A DNA stretch of 64,000 bases from a virus. Both the position numbers and the translations under genes were made by a program. The stretch lies in the IMG/VR virus record IMGVR_UViG_3300018053_000002, positions 10,063 through 74,062 of that record; one strand, given 5' to 3'. Below the pieces are notes generated by a model that saw nothing but the letters and a program-made list of their open reading frames with translations, made no database searches and was not told where the DNA came from. Each line of letters starts with the position of its first letter. The stretch's first letter is position 1. Below, piece by piece: positions 15,340 through 58,682 of the stretch.

Positions 15340-15639
15340 GTGGCGTGGGCGATGTCTATGGACCCCCAGCTCCGGGATCGAGCGCTCCGGTTGGCTGGCG
15401 TTCGTGTGGCCGGCAAGGATGTCACCCCGGGCCACGATCAGCTCCACCACTACTGGACCCGTGGTCCCGGTCTCGCTAAATGGGCTAAGAGCCCTCACCC
15501 GTGGACGGCGCTTTACAACCATCTTGTCAAGTACGTAGGCCCCGAGCGCGCAAAGCGTATGGCTGCGCAGTGGCACAAAGAGGTCTTCGGCATCTGGCCA
15601 GGGGAAAAGAAAGGCAAGAATCCAGTCGGTCCCGGCTGA
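15340..15639 (+). CDS. small head-region protein
   Basis: LHHYW..GPGLAKW...HLVKY...WH..FGIWPG; start region duplicated inside the portal extension. Confidence 0.75.
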   Translation: MAWAMSMDPQLRDRALRLAGVRVAGKDVTPGHDQLHHYWTRGPGLAKWAKSPHPWTALYNHLVKYVGPERAKRMAAQWHKEVFGIWPGEKKGKNPVGPG

Positions 15640-15715
15640 GCGGGGTGCTTGTAACGGTAACTGGCCGGGCTCATATCCCGAGCGACTAAGGGTTCGATTC
15701 CCTTCCCCGCCACCA
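15639..15715 (+). tRNA. tRNA-fMet/Met (CAT)
   Basis: Acceptor (A)GCGGGG/CCCCGC(C) with 1:72 mismatch; anticodon arm CGGG-CTCATAT-CCCG; T arm AAGGG-TTCGATT-CCCTT; encoded CCA. Confidence 0.8.
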
Positions 15716-40632: not shown

Positions 40633-40729
40633 GGTCCTCATCCCTCTCCTAAGTGCTCCCGGTACAGTTGCCGGGCCCGTGGCCGGGGCGGGACTCGAAC
40701 CCGCCCTGTGTGCCTCCTCGGCCAACCTC

Positions 40730-53365: not shown

Positions 53366-54018
53366 TGACCGTTCCCCACGACCGCGACCCGTCCAATATC
53401 AACTATTGCCGGACCTGCCGTACTGCGCTGGAGGTGTTCTACGGCACCGGGCACCTTCAGTACCGGCACACCCGGCCGGGCCATGACGATCACATGCCTG
53501 TACCGACGCCGGTTACCGAGCTGGACCACGTTGAGATGGTCTGTGACTTCTGTTCCGGCCCAGACGTGACGTGGTGCTACGTGCTCTCCGACATTGAGAA
53601 GAAGCAGGGCATCGTCAAGCGGGTCACCGCGGACCTGGCCGACTACCGGGATCAGCACTACGCCGCTCGTGTTCGCAAGGTTCAGACCGAGGGTACTTTC
53701 ACCCGTCACATGGGCGAGCGGTGGACTGCCTGCAATGACTGTTCTGAGGCCATCGAGGCTGACGACGTTATGGCGCTGGTACGGCACGTTACGTCGACAC
53801 TGGCAACCAAGCACACCCGGGCCAATCGAATTGCAGAGACCCGGGCCAAGCTGGTGGTTGCTTACACCGAGATGTTCTCACTGTCCCGGACCCGTGTGGC
53901 TGTCACTAAGGACAACCCGCTCGGACTACCGGGGAGACGACGAGATGACGTTTGGCTCGGGCCGCCTATGGAGCCGGACATGACGTGGTTAGGAGACGAC
54001 GATGCCCCGTCAAGCTGA
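53362..54018 (+). CDS. Zn-binding hypothetical protein
   Basis: CRTC, CDFC, WTACNDC. Confidence 0.7.
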   Translation: MMTVPHDRDPSNINYCRTCRTALEVFYGTGHLQYRHTRPGHDDHMPVPTPVTELDHVEMVCDFCSGPDVTWCYVLSDIEKKQGIVKRVTADLADYRDQHYAARVRKVQTEGTFTRHMGERWTACNDCSEAIEADDVMALVRHVTSTLATKHTRANRIAETRAKLVVAYTEMFSLSRTRVAVTKDNPLGLPGRRRDDVWLGPPMEPDMTWLGDDDAPSS

Positions 54019-55477
54019 TCTTCATGTGCCCAAGCGAGCCCGTATCCTGGCCCGGCTATCAGAGGCCGACGACGAGGAGAACGGCAACGGCAGTAAGGGG
54101 ATCAACGACCAGATCGACGACCTCCGGGCCGAGGCTGCCAGGATGGGCTGGACGGTGCTGGAACCCCCGGTGGTAGAGGACGGCGTCTCTGCTTTCAAAC
54201 GGCGCCGGGTGACCCTCTCAGACGGCCGGAAGGTCTACCGTGTCGTACGACCGGCACTGGCCAAGCTCCTCGACGAGCTGACGTCCGGGGTGGCCGATGG
54301 GTTGCTCGCCTACGACATCGACCGGGCGTTCCGGGACCCGCAAGACCTGGAAGACCTGATCATGGTCGTGGAGATGAGTCGACCACGGATCCCGGTACGG
54401 TCGCTGACCGGCTCGCTCCGGCTCGACAACGACGCGGACATCACGATGAGCCGGATCCATGTCGTGATGGCCAACAAGTCCTCGAAGGACACCGGCCGGC
54501 GGGTTTCCCGGGCCAAGCTCCGTCAGGCGCTCAACGGGGAGTATGGCGGGGGCCGGCGCCCGTATGGGTTCGAGGCCGATGGCGTGACCCCACGACCGTC
54601 CGAGGTGGCCGAGATCGTGAAGGCGGGTGAGGAGATCCTTACCGGTGTCAGTCTCAAGGCCATCGTGCGGGACCTCAACGCCCGTGGGCTCGTCACGGTC
54701 ACCGGTACCCAGTGGACGTCTGACGGGCTGCGTGCGGTGCTCCTGAGGGCGCGCAATGCCGGTCTGATGGTGCACCGGGGTGAAGAGGTGGGGCCGGCGC
54801 CGTGGGATCCCCTCGTACCCGAGGACCAGTGGCGCGTGATCGTGGCCAAGCTGACCGACCCGGCCCGCAAGACCTCCCCCGGCCCGGCACCGCGGTGGCT
54901 CGGCAGTGGCCTGTACCAGTGCGGTGTCTGTGGCTCCGGCCTGCGGGTGCACACCTTTGGCTATGACGCGACCCGGCAGCCCACCTACCGGTGCCAGGCC
55001 ACGGGGGGTGGTCACGTAGCTCGTACCGTTGCCTCGCTCGATGCTGCCGTGGTCGACACGATCGTGAGGTGGATGACGAGCCAGGACGTCTCCGAGCTGG
55101 TGCTCCCACGCACCGAGGGGGTCGACGTGGCCGCGCTGCGAATGGAGGTCATGACTCTTCGGGCCAGCCTGGACGACCTCGGTGCCATGTACGTGGACCG
55201 CACTATCGACAAACGCCAACTGGAGTCGGGCACGAAGCGGGCCCACGTGCGGATGGAGGAGCTGCAACGCACACTGGAGGGGGCGACGGCAACCTCTCCG
55301 CTGGTGTCGTTGGCGGGCGCGCTGGACGTCCGGGCGGCCTGGGAGGCATTGCCACTGGGCAGTCAGCGCCGGGTCATCGAGGAGCTGATGACTGTGACCG
55401 TGCTACCGATCCCTGAGGGTGGTCGTGGGCTCAGCCCGGACACCCTCCGAATCGAACCAAAGAAAGGTGGGTCATGA
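54002..55477 (+). CDS. int: large serine recombinase (integrase)
   Basis: ARLS catalytic Ser; EDGVSAF...RPAL; DIDRAFR; GGRRPYGF recombinase domain; CGVCG...YRC Zn ribbon; coiled coil. Confidence 0.93.
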   Translation: MPRQADLHVPKRARILARLSEADDEENGNGSKGINDQIDDLRAEAARMGWTVLEPPVVEDGVSAFKRRRVTLSDGRKVYRVVRPALAKLLDELTSGVADGLLAYDIDRAFRDPQDLEDLIMVVEMSRPRIPVRSLTGSLRLDNDADITMSRIHVVMANKSSKDTGRRVSRAKLRQALNGEYGGGRRPYGFEADGVTPRPSEVAEIVKAGEEILTGVSLKAIVRDLNARGLVTVTGTQWTSDGLRAVLLRARNAGLMVHRGEEVGPAPWDPLVPEDQWRVIVAKLTDPARKTSPGPAPRWLGSGLYQCGVCGSGLRVHTFGYDATRQPTYRCQATGGGHVARTVASLDAAVVDTIVRWMTSQDVSELVLPRTEGVDVAALRMEVMTLRASLDDLGAMYVDRTIDKRQLESGTKRAHVRMEELQRTLEGATATSPLVSLAGALDVRAAWEALPLGSQRRVIEELMTVTVLPIPEGGRGLSPDTLRIEPKKGGS

Positions 55478-55636
55478 AGACGTTATTTGAGGATCTAGAG
55501 GCGCTAGAGGTGATGGTGGCGTTGAGAGAGAGGGAGGTCCAGCAGGCTCAGGAAGCTCTTGACGCTGCCCTGAACCGTTACGGCCAGGCAATCGCTCGCC
55601 GTACTACGGCCCACCTTGAGGGCAGGGTAGTTGGCC

Positions 55637-56080
55637 ATGAGCCAGGTTCCTGAGCGCCGATCCGAGGGCGTTTCGGCTGAGTTCAAGGAGTCGCTCGCCG
55701 AGAACATACACGAGAATGACGAACTGTACCGACGTCTCGCCACTGGCCCCCGAGGAGCCGGAATGACTGACAACCCGCCTGACGGGATCGAGTTCCAGGC
55801 TCCTGAGTGCGCTCATAGGTCGATGTCGGAGTGCACAGGCCCGGCGGATGTCGCCATTGTCTACCGCTCGGTGCATGGGCGTGAGCTGGACCGTGAGATG
55901 GTCTGTGCCGGCCATGTTGACGACCGGGTTGTGAGGATGGTTGAGAGGCGGTCCGCGGACATTTTCGTCGAGGGCCCGCAGCGATCCTCCTTCACGTGTC
56001 CAAAGTGCGGCATGGTGAGCCACAACCTGTTTAACACCGACGCCGGCTACTGCGGAGCTTGCCACGACTGGACCGGTTGA
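55637..56080 (+). CDS. hypothetical Zn-ribbon protein
   Basis: SFTCPKCGMVSHN...GYCGACHDWTG. Confidence 0.6.
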   Translation: MSQVPERRSEGVSAEFKESLAENIHENDELYRRLATGPRGAGMTDNPPDGIEFQAPECAHRSMSECTGPADVAIVYRSVHGRELDREMVCAGHVDDRVVRMVERRSADIFVEGPQRSSFTCPKCGMVSHNLFNTDAGYCGACHDWTG

Positions 56081-56099
56081 CCTCTCCTTGGACGCCAAC

Positions 56100-56133
56100 G
56101 ACCCCGGGCCACATATCCGGTGACCCGGGGTCT
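56100..56133. terminator. terminator-like hairpin between convergent units
   Basis: GACCCCGGG-CAC...GTGACCCGGGGTC. Confidence 0.7.
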
Positions 56134-56244
56134 CCCTGTTGGCTAGAGGTTCCTACGACCTCCGTCAGTTTTCAAGACTGACACGTCGGGTAGCCGCCAT
56201 CCTCTCACGCCAGCGACGGTTGAGAACGCCTCTTAGGTCTCAGT

Positions 56245-56318
56245 ACGTGCGCTCTGCCTGTTGAGCTACCCCGCCATGATTGGAGGCGGGGGCGGGATCC
56301 GAACCCGCAACCTCACGT
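56245..56318 (-). ncRNA. circularly permuted tRNA-like module 2
   Basis: ACGTG-AGGTT-GCGGG TTCGGAT CCCGC-CCCCGCC TCCAATCAT GGCGGGG-TA-GCTC AACAGGCA GAGC-G-CACGT. Confidence 0.8.
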
Positions 56319-56395
56319 AATTTGATGACGTCCGGTTGATCTGGCGATCGACGGCAATACTGAGTTTGGGACAAACAGCTTGAGTTTGAGTAGGC

Positions 56396-56473
56396 TCCCG
56401 ACGCCTCTGCCATTTGGGCTACCGGGGCATGATGGGAGCCCCGGGCTGGGATTTGAACCCGCACTGAACGGGA
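56396..56473 (-). ncRNA. circularly permuted tRNA-like module 1
   Basis: TCCCG-TTCAGT-GCGGG TTCAAAT CCCAGC-CCGGGGC TCCCATCAT GCCCCGG-TA-GCC CAAATGGCAGA GGC-GT-CGGGA. Confidence 0.78.
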
Positions 56474-56639
56474 TACCTGAGTTTGAGTTTGAGATTGAGT
56501 TTGTTGTCCCACCCCCGAGGGGGCGTCTAAGGGATGGCCGGTCTGACGCGATGCCCGGATCCGTCACGAGGATTATTGGATCTCCGGAACCACAGACTGC
56601 ACCGGCAGGTTCGGTGGCGGCCATCAGTTATCGAGGTTA

Positions 56640-57380
56640 CTACGCGAACAGGTAGCCGAAAATCTTGGTACCGATCTCGATGCTCGGGGCCTCGGTCGTG
56701 TTGGCCTGCTCGCGGGCGACCTTCACGGCGTCCATGAGCTTGAGTACGCGCGTGCGCAGCTCGTTGACCCGGGCCTGGGGCAGAGCACCGGAGAACTTGG
56801 TTGTGGTCCAGTTTCCCACGAGCACGTCCTCGTAGTACATCTCGACCTGAGCCGGGTGCTTGTCGGTGGCCTCGGCCCGGACGTGGTTGCGGGGCACCTT
56901 CTTGGACCGGACGGTCTGGGTTGCCGGCGTCGCGAACGCATCGGTGGCCGGGTCGTAGACCCATGTGTCAGCCGGGTCGAGCACGGGTAGTTTGGCTACG
57001 AACGTATGGACGTCGCCGAGATGCTTCTCCAGGAAGAGCAGGGTGGTCGCCGGTACGTTCTCGGCGATAGTCTCCCCGTCCACCTCGATGTCGGCTCGGG
57101 CGGTCGCGTTGCCCTTGTCCTTGGTGATCGTGATGTCGAATAGGCGGGTGAGCGCACGCTCGACGTCCTTGATCACGTCGGTGGCCCGGATCTGTACCCG
57201 GGTCTGCTCGGGTGGGAGCTGCTCCTTGTCGTCATCGTCCTTGGCCTTGTACGTGCGAGAGATACCCGACAGGAGCGGTGCCTTCTGGAGCAGTTGGTAG
57301 GCGGCCGTGAAGTCCGCGGAGGCGCGGGGCTTGATCCCCTTCTCCAGGGCGACGACCTTGTTGAGAGTCTGTGGCACCAC
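56640..57380 (-). CDS. uncharacterised coiled-coil protein directly upstream of the tRNA-mimic RNA
   Basis: LLSGISRTY...LPPE..RVQ...LLFLEK.L...LPVLD...HPAQV...AVKVAREQAN; resembles a conserved actinomycete family. Confidence 0.85.
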   Translation of the reverse strand: MVPQTLNKVVALEKGIKPRASADFTAAYQLLQKAPLLSGISRTYKAKDDDDKEQLPPEQTRVQIRATDVIKDVERALTRLFDITITKDKGNATARADIEVDGETIAENVPATTLLFLEKHLGDVHTFVAKLPVLDPADTWVYDPATDAFATPATQTVRSKKVPRNHVRAEATDKHPAQVEMYYEDVLVGNWTTTKFSGALPQARVNELRTRVLKLMDAVKVAREQANTTEAPSIEIGTKIFGYLFA

Positions 57381-57440: not shown

Positions 57441-57809
57441 TCAAGGGGGATTGCTCGCGGCACCGCTGAAGGTTGTCACCACGTATTCGTCCGAGGATCC
57501 CTCAAGGTCCAGGGCGGTGAGGACCAGAGTGACCATATGCTCATGGCCCACCTTGGCGTCCTCCAGTGAGCTGTAGCGATCCTGATCTGCGTCCAATGGA
57601 CCTCCGAAGACCATCGTCTCCCACAAGATCGGGGGGCCGCCTTCATGCCAACCATGATCTAGAACCAGGAAAATCGTCGAGACCTGGATGTGTAGATCCT
57701 TAGTAACGATCATGGTCTTAGCAACATGTCGAGCCTCGCCATCTCTCAGGAGAGCGTCTGCTTCCTGAATGGAAATGGGCTGGAGGTTCAACCCGTACCA
57801 GAGGATCAT
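57441..57809 (-). CDS. hypothetical phage protein
   Basis: VSTIFL.LDH...PILWETMVFGG...RYSS..DA..GH. Confidence 0.75.
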   Translation of the reverse strand: MILWYGLNLQPISIQEADALLRDGEARHVAKTMIVTKDLHIQVSTIFLVLDHGWHEGGPPILWETMVFGGPLDADQDRYSSLEDAKVGHEHMVTLVLTALDLEGSSDEYVVTTFSGAASNPP

Positions 57810-58066
57810 TAGAAGACCGTTGTCCTCTTCCGTCTCACCGGCCGGTCACATAGGTAGCCGACAGTGGTGCCGAGCGTATGAGCGATGGCGGCCAGGACCG
57901 TGATCGTGGTGTCCTGCCTGCCGGCCTCGATGTTGGCGATGGACGAACGGGCACGACCGACCGCGGCGGCCAGGTCTTCTTGTCGCATCCCGGACTCATA
58001 TCGCAGGAGTGCGATGCGGGCGCCCATCTCGGTAAGGAGGATCTGGGTCTTTAGGTTGGCTTGCAT
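57809..58066 (-). CDS. XRE-family HTH regulator
   Basis: GMRQEDLAAAVGRARSSIANIEAGRQ. Confidence 0.85.
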   Translation of the reverse strand: MQANLKTQILLTEMGARIALLRYESGMRQEDLAAAVGRARSSIANIEAGRQDTTITVLAAIAHTLGTTVGYLCDRPVRRKRTTVF

Positions 58067-58428
58067 CGGCCGCCGTGCTCGTCGGTACAGTCGGGCGCGT
58101 GCTCGTCGTAGCTCGTGGACTCCTCCGGCGGCAGTGGTAGACCGTACCGCTTGGCGTCCGCAGCGCTCTGCTTGGCCAGCTTCTTGTCGACTTTCTTCTT
58201 TCTTTCTGCGCGCTCGCCCGGTGTATCCCTCATCATGGGCCGAAAGAGCGCGTGCTCGATGGTGAAATAGAGCAGAGCGATGGGCCAGAACAGGCCCGTA
58301 AAGAATGCGGCTGGTGTCGGGCCGTTTTCCTCTCGATCCCAGTTCTGCCTGTCTATGAGACGGATGAATTGCAATCGCCACACCACCAGCATCATGATGA
58401 CGTACCCGACGATGATTACCCAGGTCAT
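58051..58428 (-). CDS. membrane protein
   Basis: Two TM segments; LFWP. Confidence 0.65.
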   Translation of the reverse strand: MTWVIIVGYVIMMLVVWRLQFIRLIDRQNWDREENGPTPAAFFTGLFWPIALLYFTIEHALFRPMMRDTPGERAERKKKVDKKLAKQSAADAKRYGLPLPPEESTSYDEHAPDCTDEHGGRCKPT

Positions 58429-58682
58429 GTCCGGACCACCAATCGGTGTTCTCCGGGACAGTCGGGGGCAGGGCAGGACACGGCGGCCGGCTCGCGACCG
58501 TATCGATGTTCTTCAAGCGGGCCCTGGGTCAACAATGCCGGCCAGGTCATGATGTACCCGTCCTCGAACCGGAGCCACAGCGCGGGGTTGTCCTGACCGC
58601 GGTCCCACCGTTCACCGTAGAAGTCGATCAGTGCCCTCACGTCCAGCGGCGGCGGCTCGGGCAGGCTCCATCGGCGGGTCAT
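58425..58682 (-). CDS. hypothetical protein
   Basis: WSLPEPP...D..GERW...TWPALL..GPL. Confidence 0.55.
   Translation of the reverse strand: MTRRWSLPEPPPLDVRALIDFYGERWDRGQDNPALWLRFEDGYIMTWPALLTQGPLEEHRYGREPAAVSCPAPDCPGEHRLVVRT

What the first reader, a model, noticed from the sequence alone, without database searches (positions are those of the whole stretch)
56135..57380. Protein-linked ncRNA with two circularly permuted tRNA mimics and CAAACT repeats
Seen (minus strand, after gene 56640-57380): two modules in which the tRNA 3' half (T arm, acceptor strand, CCA/CCC) precedes the 5' half (acceptor strand, D arm). They are joined by ATCAT, with perfect 7-bp acceptor pairing and no anticodon loop. 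Module 1 sits on a stem (GGGACAA/TTGTCCC) whose internal loop carries AAACTC repeats on both sides. A separate anticodon-like arm TCAGT-CTTGAAA-ACTGA with a variable-arm-like hairpin lies at 56145-56182, before the terminator. Known: bacterial YrlA Y RNAs are tRNA mimics with a loop-closed acceptor stem and normally sit by a Ro60/TROVE gene; none is in this window. Inference: a distinct RNP with the upstream coiled-coil protein, perhaps a decoy for tRNA-targeting defence or tRNA-processing enzymes.
Basis: partly seen in the sequence, partly recalled or inferred. Interest (0 to 1): 0.8.

Follow-up and report, generated by a model that had tools for sequence, protein, structure and literature searches.

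The report
Two-headed tRNA-mimic RNA beside DUF7873
A temperate phage carries an unstudied protein gene (DUF7873) followed by a folded RNA of about 430 bases holding two back-to-front tRNA look-alikes; the RNA is a relative of bacterial Y RNAs, but here and in many other phages and bacteria it travels with this protein instead of Ro60.

Summary
Downstream of the 246-aa gene (DUF7873, PF25283) lies a structured RNA of about 430 nt (about 56531-56100, minus strand). It has two permuted tRNA-like modules: T arm, 7-bp acceptor stem closed by a U-CCA/CCC-AUCAU loop, then D arm.

- **Kinship:** module 2 is a sub-threshold YrlA match (36.7 bits).
- **Fold:** my model of module 2 (R1) gives 96.6% paired cells, and 25 of 25 pairs show compensatory changes over 43 sequences.
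- **Linkage:** R1 finds the RNA just downstream, on the same strand, of 28 of 28 strong DUF7873 genes sampled by protein alone. All 6 genome-wide hits of 55 bits or more in 151 Planctomycetota genomes lie there too.
- **Ro60:** no Ro60 domain (TROVE or vWA_Ro60) in 11 of 11 phage records.
- **Two sub-families:** weaker R1 hits (42-52 bits) proved to be classic Ro60-YrlA-RtcB/RtcA loci. These carry the Ro60-binding motif but not the features specific to DUF7873 RNAs.
- **DUF7873-specific features:** hexamer repeats and a long terminal hairpin with a conserved MGGNUAY loop (32 of 44 loci).

The "anticodon-like arm" is a variable insert. Binding of protein to RNA, processing and function are untested, and no transcript data exist. 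Four literature searches found no description. This scan has noted the same pair before on other DNA (372 notes). I class it as a new variant of a known kind.

The parts
56640..57380 (-). DUF7873 protein gene (246 aa, GTG start)
   Evidence: Pfam PF25283: E 6.5e-100, 334 bits, profile positions 3-242 of 244. AlphaFold model with pLDDT 97.1. 2256 cluster representatives at E<=0.001.
56532..56639 (-). Spacer between the stop codon and the conserved RNA; it folds into a long local stem in the MFE
   Evidence: MFE fold. It has no counterpart in relatives, where the conserved 5' hairpin starts 10-30 nt after the stop. Whether it belongs to the RNA is unknown.
56511..56531 (-). Conserved 5' hairpin (AGAC-CCCCC...GGGGG-UG); likely start of the conserved RNA
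   Evidence: Aligned block 'AGACNCCCC...GGGGTG' in relatives.
56478..56503 (-). 5' hexamer repeats (CAAACT, 4.3 copies)
   Evidence: TRF and AAACTCA enrichment. Period-6 arrays with units CAAACT, CAGACT, CAAGCT or CAAGGT in 23 of 44 loci.
56403..56462 (-). Module 1: permuted tRNA mimic (T arm, acceptor CCGGGGC/GCCCCGG closed by UCCCAUCAU, D arm GCCC/GAGGC); T stem degenerate
   Evidence: Sequence. R1 34.7 bits. RNAalifold on relatives shows compensatory changes in the acceptor and T stems.
56361..56391 (-). 3' repeat-bearing strand (AAACTCA twice) with TTGTCCC (56368-56374), which can pair with GGGACAA (56504-56510)
   Evidence: Equivalent complementary pairs can be drawn in relatives, but they are not separable from shuffles.
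56205..56350 (-). Module 2 domain: basal stems, conserved AUCAAC/AAUCGAC stretch, anticodon-stem-like helix, T arm, 7-bp acceptor closed by UCCAAUCAU, D arm
   Evidence: R1 108.9 bits. Rfam YrlA 36.7 bits over 56220-56334. 25 of 25 pairs with compensatory change.
56146..56182 (-). Two small hairpins (loops CUUGAAA and CGUAGGA) in a variable insert of the 3' domain
   Evidence: Sequence. Similar only in L004; other relatives have unrelated or no insert.
56100..56132 (-). Terminal 13-bp hairpin with conserved 7-nt loop CGGAUAU; no U tract after it here
   Evidence: A hairpin with loop MGGNUAY is found in 32 of 44 loci against 16 of 880 shuffles, and in 0 of 6 Ro60-linked RNAs.

Best explanation
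The region encodes one structured non-coding RNA of about 430 nt. It belongs to the same superfamily as YrlA-type bacterial Y RNAs (tRNA mimics with T arm, loop-closed acceptor stem and D arm). It forms a separate branch whose fixed genetic partner is the DUF7873 protein, not Ro60.

Most likely working model (inferred, not shown):
- DUF7873 binds the non-tRNA parts of the RNA. These are the hexamer repeats around module 1, the conserved single-stranded stretch 5' of module 2, and the terminal hairpin loop.
- The one or two tRNA-like heads are presented to tRNA-handling factors of the host.
- Both acceptor stems have 7 bp, and the loops tend to begin with N-CCA. The heads are therefore probably nicked by RNase P at G+1 and trimmed or extended to a CCA end, as shown for Mycobacterium smegmatis YrlA. 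This would leave a multi-piece RNA held together by base pairing.
- In this phage the pair sits in the integrase/repressor-side leftward gene block, so it may be expressed from the prophage.
- The biological role is open. I favour tRNA or RNA surveillance, repair or protection in phage-host conflict.
For: Shown:
- A real, strand-specific fold. Over 43 module-2 sequences, 96.6% of cells are paired and 25 of 25 pairs have changes on both sides. The covariation score is 0.906, against 0.254 in shuffles (0 of 500 reach it) and 0.13-0.15 when slid. On structure-blind MAFFT alignments, 22 of 25 pairs (module 2) and 11 of 20 pairs (module 1) are compensatory.
- Kinship with YrlA. Rfam YrlA matches full-length at 36.7 bits here and 31-37 bits in three actinophages. 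R1 in turn hits RNAs beside Ro60-type or Rtc genes at 42-52 bits.
- Linkage from gene to RNA: 28 of 28 strong DUF7873 loci from 1203 genomes of three phyla, plus one divergent paralogue. All 11 non-training loci of the first set also have it.
- Linkage from RNA to gene. All 6 R1 hits of 55 bits or more in 151 genomes follow DUF7873. In six whole phage records the only hits at E<=1e-4 or better are the pair after DUF7873, apart from one 29-bit hit.
- No conserved third gene within 8 kb on either side in six chromosomal loci.
- No Ro60 in 11 of 11 phage records, by TROVE and by vWA_Ro60.
- Branch-specific features. The MGGNUAY terminal hairpin is in 32 of 44 loci against 0 of 6 Ro60-linked RNAs. 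The Ro60 motif GNCGAAN0-1G sits at a fixed place in 5 of 6 Ro60-linked RNAs. In DUF7873 RNAs it is scattered at about chance level (11 of 44 loci) and absent here.
- N-CCA starts the acceptor loop in 9 of 15 module-1 rows and 14 of 43 module-2 rows.

From a paper: M. smegmatis YrlA, with a 7-bp acceptor stem, is cut by RNase P and gains CCA in vivo (PMC4201824, passages read).
Against: - No transcript, processing or binding datum exists. No RNA run holds this DNA.
- DUF7873 is near-neutral (median pI 6.2). It has no recognisable RNA-binding fold. Foldseek gave nothing at E<=0.001. The best VIA match is 3kdq, a protein of unknown function, at Z 9.2 with rmsd 7.9.
- The tRNA core of module 1 is dispensable. 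It is replaced by a plain hairpin in L013, L029, L030 and L035.
- CCA in the loop is not universal.
- The outer stem of module 1 is not separable from chance in my control.
- 2 of 5 MAGs that carry the pair also encode a TROVE protein elsewhere. Use of a host Ro60 is therefore not excluded.
- An earlier check in this scan priced the 'works as one unit without Ro60' reading at 22 in 100.
Confidence: 0.55

Rival explanations
1. It is an ordinary YrlA Y RNA supplied by the phage, and it works with the host's own Ro60. DUF7873 would be only a neighbour.
For: Homology to YrlA. A canonical Ro60-adjacent YrlA in an actinobacterial MAG also scores only 42.4 bits with Rfam, so a low Rfam score does not exclude membership. 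2 of 5 MAGs with the pair encode TROVE elsewhere.
Against: The Ro60-binding motif GNCGAAN0-1G is absent from this RNA and is only at chance level in 44 DUF7873 RNAs, but sits at a fixed place in 5 of 6 Ro60-linked ones. The gene-RNA linkage of 28 of 28 across phyla would be unexplained. In one genome (G005) both kinds coexist and score 109 and 42.5 bits with R1.
Confidence: 0.12
2. The RNA is a decoy or sponge for host enzymes or toxins that recognise the tRNA acceptor end or elbow. DUF7873 would be a helper or stabiliser. Examples of targets are nucleotidyltransferase or pyrophosphokinase toxins, RNase P or Z, and the CCA-adding enzyme.
For: tRNA top-half mimicry with a 7-bp acceptor stem and N-CCA-biased loops. 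Location inside tRNA gene arrays of lytic actinophages and in the prophage-side block here.
Against: No match of DUF7873 to anti-defence or defence models (PADLOC). The pair also sits in bacterial chromosomes with no shared neighbours. There is no anticodon loop, so the best-known tRNA-cleaving defences are not addressed. No experiment exists.
Confidence: 0.2
3. It is a cis-acting 3' UTR element of the DUF7873 mRNA (stability, termination or translational control), not a trans-acting RNA.
For: It is always on the same strand directly downstream. No separate promoter-like site was found here. It ends in a strong hairpin, followed by a U tract in several relatives.
Against: A 350-450-nt multi-domain fold with tRNA mimicry is far more than a terminator needs. 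The terminal loop sequence is conserved. In L008 about 300 nt with an open frame lie between gene and RNA, and here a 108-nt spacer does. Its relatives, the YrlA RNAs, are free-standing RNAs (PMC4201824).
Confidence: 0.08
4. It is debris of tRNA genes (rearranged pseudo-tRNAs), or a permuted tRNA or two-piece tmRNA gene.
For: The permuted order is the same as in two-piece tmRNA genes (recalled). Phage relatives lie among tRNA genes.
Against: ARAGORN, which also looks for tmRNA genes, calls nothing here. There is no anticodon arm and no tag frame. Compensatory evolution across phyla excludes debris. G3:U70 was seen only in Phendrix module 1, by eye.
Confidence: 0.03

Closest known systems
YrlA-type bacterial and phage Y RNAs with Ro60/Rsr (Rfam RF02553; Chen et al. 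2014, PMC4201824)
   Same: Same permuted tRNA-like core (anticodon-like stem, T arm, loop-closed acceptor, D arm) on basal stems. Cross-detection by both covariance models. Tandem modules occur in both.
   Different: The partner gene is DUF7873, not Ro60, and no Rtc genes are nearby. It lacks the GNCGAAN0-1G / GGAACUACAU Ro60 block. It has hexamer repeats, a 3' domain and an MGGNUAY terminal hairpin. The two modules are parts of one RNA with different flanks, not repeats of one unit. It is below the Rfam gathering score.
Mycobacterium smegmatis YrlA (Chen et al. 2014, section on RNase P cleavage, passages read)
   Same: 7-bp acceptor stem in an actinobacterial setting. It is the precedent for RNase P nicking and a CCA end on a loop-closed tRNA mimic.
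   Different: That RNA is bound by Rsr and encoded 5' of rsr. Here CCA is often already encoded in the loop, and processing is only predicted.
Two-piece (circularly permuted) tmRNA genes and permuted tRNA genes of Cyanidioschyzon (recalled, not looked up here)
   Same: Gene order is 3' half - CCA - short linker - 5' half, which needs processing to open the acceptor end.
   Different: No tag reading frame, no anticodon arm, and no ARAGORN call.
Ro60-YrlA-RtcB-RtcA RNA repair operons (found here in Planctomycetota MAGs; Hughes et al. 2020, PMC7790460, seen in listing only)
   Same: A tRNA-mimic RNA encoded next to a dedicated protein partner.
   Different: Those loci carry RNA ligase and cyclase genes. 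DUF7873 loci share no neighbour within 8 kb.

Membership tests
YrlA (Rfam RF02553) | Reaches the family's gathering score (69 bits) | tested here: not met
   36.7 bits (module 2) and 14.7 bits (module 1). Caveat: a Ro60-adjacent YrlA in MAG G005 also reaches only 42.4 bits, so this cut-off is weak evidence.
YrlA (Rfam RF02553) | tRNA-like domain: T arm, acceptor stem closed by a loop, D arm, on an anticodon-like stem | tested here: met
   Full-length alignment to the model; covariation.
YrlA (Rfam RF02553) | Encoded within about 4 kb of, and on the same strand as, a Ro60/TROVE gene (criterion of Chen et al. 2014) | tested here: not met
   No TROVE or vWA_Ro60 match in the 74-kb record or in 10 other phage records with the pair. 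The own record is only 81% complete by CheckV.
YrlA (Rfam RF02553) | GNCGAAN0-1G motif near the 5' end (proposed Ro60 contact) | tested here: not met
   No match in 56205-56640 on the minus strand. Present at a fixed place in 5 of 6 Ro60-linked RNAs examined.
YrlA (Rfam RF02553) | Bound by Ro60/Rsr in cells | not testable with these tools
   Needs immunoprecipitation.
tRNA / tmRNA | Cloverleaf in normal order with an anticodon arm, or a tmRNA with a tag frame (standard or permuted) | tested here: not met
   ARAGORN and Rfam tRNA call only the tRNA-Met at 15639-15715.
DUF7873 (Pfam PF25283), the protein | Score over the curated cut-off across the whole profile | tested here: met
   334.3 bits against a 27-bit cut-off, profile positions 3-242 of 244.
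DUF7873-linked tRNA-mimic RNA (working family defined here by model R1) | R1 match well above the Ro60-linked range (42-52 bits), directly downstream of DUF7873 on the same strand | tested here: met
   108.9 bits at 56205-56350 on the minus strand. The window was one of the 12 training rows, so the score itself is by construction. Untrained loci score 53-105 bits.

The most novel reading that the evidence does not exclude
DUF7873 and this RNA form a Ro60-independent ribonucleoprotein that is widespread in phages and bacteria. The protein coats the hexamer repeats and grips the conserved terminal loop. RNase P and 3' trimming open both acceptor loops, giving a three-piece RNA with two free CCA-ended tRNA 'top halves' on one scaffold. 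This two-headed tRNA mimic then engages a factor that handles two tRNAs at once, or a dimeric one. Candidates are the ribosomal peptidyl-transferase side, RNase Z, a class II synthetase or a tRNA-end-modifying toxin. The effect would be to protect or redirect translation during infection or lysogeny.
Probability: 0.25. Interest if true: 0.85.

Novelty: new variant of a known kind. Interest (0 to 1): 0.72.

Why it matters
- Y RNAs are known only as partners of Ro60. A second, equally fixed protein partner would split the tRNA-mimic Y RNA world into at least two ribonucleoprotein classes.
- The family is large. The protein has 2256 clusters at 50% identity, and about 2-5% of sampled Actinomycetota and Planctomycetota genomes carry it.
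- It gives a first functional handle on DUF7873.
- Carriers include cultured phages (Gordonia, Arthrobacter, Rhodococcus, Vibrio, Klebsiella, cyanophages), where it often sits inside tRNA gene arrays. The idea is therefore directly testable at the bench.
- It also shows that Rfam's YrlA threshold misses both this branch and some genuine Ro60-linked actinobacterial and planctomycete YrlAs.

Tried and rejected
- **Rule-based module finder:** too loose, with dozens of chance hits. It also missed both true modules (non-consensus T loop TTCGGAT; mismatched T stem). I dropped it in favour of a covariance model.
- **Outer stem GGGACAA/TTGTCCC:** equivalents can be drawn by eye in relatives. RNAalifold did not predict it. 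My shuffle control gave a mean longest helix of 5.87 against 5.27. Inconclusive.
- **Pseudoknot** between the terminal loop and upstream sequence: looked for by eye only. No consistent partner, so dropped.
- **Two-piece tmRNA or alanine identity:** G3:U70 seen only in Phendrix module 1, by eye. Rejected.
- **Protein fold:**
  - PDB sequence profile search: nothing below E 0.2.
  - Foldseek PDB: nothing at E<=0.001; top weak rows are PUR-alpha and TolC.
  - VIA wide: best is 3kdq_A at Z 9.2, rmsd 7.9; the rest are helical hairpins at Z<8.
  - NCBIfam, PADLOC and PHROGs: no family.
  - ESM Atlas: only DUF7873 clusters and unnamed phage proteins.
- **Expression:** no RNA holder listed. The four holders are DNA runs of freshwater sediment metagenomes, two of them possibly the source. 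Read laying was not used, because DNA contigs cannot show a transcript.
- **Literature:**
  - 'DUF7873': 0 papers.
  - YrlA + phage: 6 papers, none on this pair.
  - tRNA-like/permuted/bacteriophage, tRNA-like/Y RNA/phage/tRNA array and tRNA mimic/anti-defense searches found nothing relevant.
  - Burroughs & Aravind 2016 (NAR) and Sim et al. 2020 (Annu Rev Microbiol) are not held. The statement in an earlier scan note that a Ro-independent tRNA-like RNA was proposed in 2016 is therefore unchecked.
  - Supplementary tables of Chen et al. 2014 (lists of YrlA loci) were closed and not seen. By the paper's stated criteria they hold only RNAs within 4 kb of Ro60.
- **TROVE alone as a test for Ro60:** it missed divergent Ro60 genes in Planctomycetota. 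I repeated the phage test with vWA_Ro60.
Full report
**What is in the window.** The window is bases 10063-74062 of a 74,062-base IMG/VR virus record, which CheckV estimates to be 81% complete. The DNA recurs in freshwater sediment metagenomes. Three features define the neighbourhood:
- The ORF at 56640-57380 (minus strand) is a full-length DUF7873 protein (PF25283, E 6.5e-100).
- A large serine integrase lies at 54002-55477 (plus strand).
- An HTH/XRE-type regulator lies at 57809-58516 (minus strand).

The gene therefore lies in the integrase/repressor-side block of a temperate phage. That it is expressed from the prophage is my inference from this position, not a result.

**The observation.** Read on the minus strand, two modules follow the gene.
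- Each runs T arm, 3' acceptor strand, a 9-nt loop (U-CCC-AUCAU or U-CCA-AUCAU), 5' acceptor strand, D arm.
- Both acceptor stems have seven perfect pairs.
- Module 2 is clean. Module 1 keeps only 3 of 5 T-stem pairs and has one extra base.
- ARAGORN and Rfam's tRNA model ignore both.
- Rfam's YrlA model aligns full-length to module 2 at 36.7 bits (E 3e-6) and to module 1 at 14.7 bits. Both are under the 69-bit gathering score.
- The CAAACT-type repeats are significant.
- The 546-nt stretch folds better than shuffles (z = -3.37).

**Relatives.**
- tblastn finds DUF7873 in 75 phage records: Vibrio 29, Gordonia 12, Rhizobium 12, Klebsiella 7, Serratia 6, Arthrobacter 3, and others.
- An exhaustive profile-free search finds 2256 cluster representatives at E<=0.001, nearly all about 245 aa long.
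- In Gordonia phage Phendrix, Arthrobacter phage Mimi and Rhodococcus phage NiceHouse, the gene sits inside the tRNA gene array. It is followed by an unannotated gap of 400-530 bp.
- That gap holds sub-threshold YrlA matches in Phendrix and Mimi (37.1 and 32.9 bits). Gordonia phage Ziko has one at 31.3 bits in the corresponding stretch, where two small ORFs are annotated. NiceHouse gave no YrlA match at E<=0.1.
- A 13-locus alignment shows one conserved RNA, not two separate genes. Its parts, in order, are:
  - a 5' GC hairpin;
  - hexamer repeats;
  - module 1;
  - a conserved repeat-bearing return strand;
  - a conserved AAUCGAC-type stretch;
  - module 2;
  - a CUUAAACGUG-type block;
  - a variable 3' domain;
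  - a long terminal hairpin.

**Fold evidence.**
- On MAFFT alignments made without structure, RNAalifold recovers the T, acceptor and D helices. Compensatory changes occur in 11 of 20 pairs (module 1) and 22 of 25 pairs (module 2).
- I built model R1 from the 12-row module-2 alignment.
- On 43 matches aligned to R1, 96.6% of cells pair. All 25 pairs change on both sides somewhere. The acceptor stem pairs in 100% of cells.
- The covariation score is 0.906. Shuffles give 0.254 (0 of 500 reach the observed value), and slid partners give 0.13-0.15.
- That alignment is fitted to the model, which favours it. The MAFFT-based result is the independent one.
- G-U pairs in several helices fit the gene's strand.

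**Is the RNA tied to the gene?**
- *From gene to RNA.*
  - I sampled DUF7873 by protein family alone. It occurs in 8 of 401 Actinomycetota genomes, 2 of 401 Pseudomonadota (1 over the cut-off) and 20 of 401 Planctomycetota.
  - Of the 33 loci returned, 28 have a strong protein match (over 300 bits). All 28 have an R1 hit at E<=0.01 downstream on the same strand.
  - Three of these 28 are places already in my first set, and one of them was a training row.
  - A divergent paralogue (221 bits) also has hits.
  - One locus is cut by its contig end.
  - Three weak protein matches (22-26 bits) have none.
  - In the first set, all 11 loci not used for training have a hit, down to 38.5 bits (cyanophage) and 27.2 bits (Vibrio phage).
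- *From RNA to gene.*
  - In 151 Planctomycetota genomes, the six R1 hits of 55 bits or more all lie just after DUF7873 genes.
  - Two further DUF7873 loci score 36-40 bits there.
  - Two more were lost to the stricter filters of that scan, but score 53 and 55.6 bits.
  - In six whole phage records, including this one, the only hits are the module pair after DUF7873, plus one 29-bit hit.
- *No third gene.* Within 8 kb on either side of six chromosomal loci, no other protein is shared. The exception is two neighbours common to one closely related pair of loci.

My covariance-model test agrees with the fold test.

**Relation to Ro60 and YrlA.**
- No TROVE and no vWA_Ro60 domain occurs in this record or in 10 other phage records with the pair. 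Of those 10, five are complete GenBank genomes, four are IMG/VR records with CheckV completeness of 99-100%, and one is a GenBank chromosome-level assembly.
- Two of five MAGs with the pair have a TROVE gene on another contig.
- In one of them (G005), that gene has its own YrlA next to it. It scores 42.4 bits with Rfam and 42.5 with R1, and carries GCCGAAG near its 5' end. The DUF7873-linked RNA of the same genome scores 109 bits with R1.
- I examined five of the many 30-52-bit R1 hits in DUF7873-free Planctomycetota. None is a tRNA gene.
  - Three have a vWA_Ro60 protein directly upstream.
  - A fourth has a partial homologue of it at the contig start.
  - RtcB or RtcA lies downstream in three by Pfam, and in a fourth by BLAST.
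  - The other hits in that range were not examined.
- The plain TROVE search had missed these Ro60 genes. That is why I repeated the phage test with vWA_Ro60.

The two kinds of RNA are therefore homologous but separable:

| Feature | Ro60-linked RNAs | DUF7873-linked RNAs |
|---|---|---|
| GNCGAAN0-1G Ro60 motif | 5 of 6, at a fixed place before each module | 11 of 44, scattered; 12 occurrences in 18.6 kb, about 9 expected by my rough estimate; none in this window's RNA |
| Long terminal hairpin with 7-nt loop MGGNUAY | 0 of 6 | 32 of 44, against 16 of 880 shuffles |
| Period-6 repeats (CAAACT, CAGACT, CAAGCT, CAAGGT) | not tested | 23 of 44 at a permissive TRF threshold |

- The tRNA core of module 1 is optional. 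In L013 (the closest relative, 69% protein identity), L029, L030 and L035, a plain hairpin replaces it, while the repeat-bearing scaffold stays. By R1 hits, roughly two thirds of loci have two heads.
- The 'anticodon-like arm' and its neighbour hairpin lie in a variable insert. A CUUGAA-type loop there is shared only with Phendrix.
- The final hairpin has no U tract here, though several relatives have one. Its conserved loop argues that it is more than a terminator.
- The acceptor loops begin with N-CCA far more often than chance would give. This holds for 9 of 15 module-1 rows and 14 of 43 module-2 rows.
- M. smegmatis YrlA is cut by RNase P and given CCA in vivo, and its authors ascribe this to its 7-bp acceptor stem (PMC4201824, passages). 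Taken with the N-CCA bias, this makes nicking at G+1 and a free CCA end the likeliest processing route. This is a prediction.

**The protein.**
- AlphaFold gives a confident model (pLDDT 97.1, pTM 0.77) with four long helices and a beta sheet.
- No informative structural or family match was found.
- The family is near-neutral (median pI 6.2). It has a strongly conserved ATDKHPAQ stretch and other invariant polar residues.
- Nothing shows RNA binding.

**Verdict.**
- The RNA is real, folded and under selection.
- It is a distinct branch of the YrlA-type tRNA mimics.
- It forms a self-contained two-part module with DUF7873 in many phages and bacteria.
- That the two form a particle, that RNase P opens the heads, and what the particle does are all inferences.
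- I found no paper on it. Chen et al. 2014 searched only genomes that encode a TROVE protein, which explains why this branch was not seen.
- This scan has noted the same pair on other DNA many times.

Noticed in passing
L064-L068 (Planctomycetota MAG contigs), e.g. L066 2007-2330 minus strand: Ro60-type operons (vWA_Ro60 protein, tandem YrlA-like RNAs each preceded by GGCGAAUGC...GGAACUACAU, then RtcB and RtcA). Both the plain TROVE search and Rfam's YrlA gathering score would miss them. L066 seems to carry up to four tandem modules. L067 has a HEPN AbiU2 gene between the Ro60-like gene and the RNA.
   Followed up: partly
L014 3934-4185: The acceptor loop of module 2 holds a 117-nt insert full of short GAGTC/GACTC-type repeats. 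Other loci have hairpin inserts of 20-45 nt at the same place, so the loop tolerates large insertions.
   Followed up: no
L004 3063-3591 (Gordonia phage Phendrix): A tmRNA match (89 bits, over the gathering score) lies in an unannotated gap of the phage's tRNA array, about 1.4 kb upstream of the DUF7873 gene.
   Followed up: no
L008 3720-4050: In this IMG/VR phage, about 300 nt with an open frame (signal-peptide-like start) lie between the DUF7873 stop and the RNA. The RNA is therefore not always immediately adjacent.
   Followed up: no
window 56532-56639 (minus strand): The 108-nt spacer after the stop codon folds into a long stem in the MFE and has no counterpart in relatives. It could hold the RNA's promoter or an extra domain.
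   Followed up: no
window 40688-40704 (minus strand): An isolated T-arm-like hairpin followed by a short GC palindrome gives weak YrlA (17 bits) and R1 (14.6 bits) hits. It is probably a terminator-like hairpin.
   Followed up: no
window 55604-56098 and 57441-57809 (minus strand): The ORFs flanking the gene-RNA pair on the same strand (164 aa and 122 aa) match no family in Pfam, PHROGs, NCBIfam or PADLOC.
   Followed up: partly
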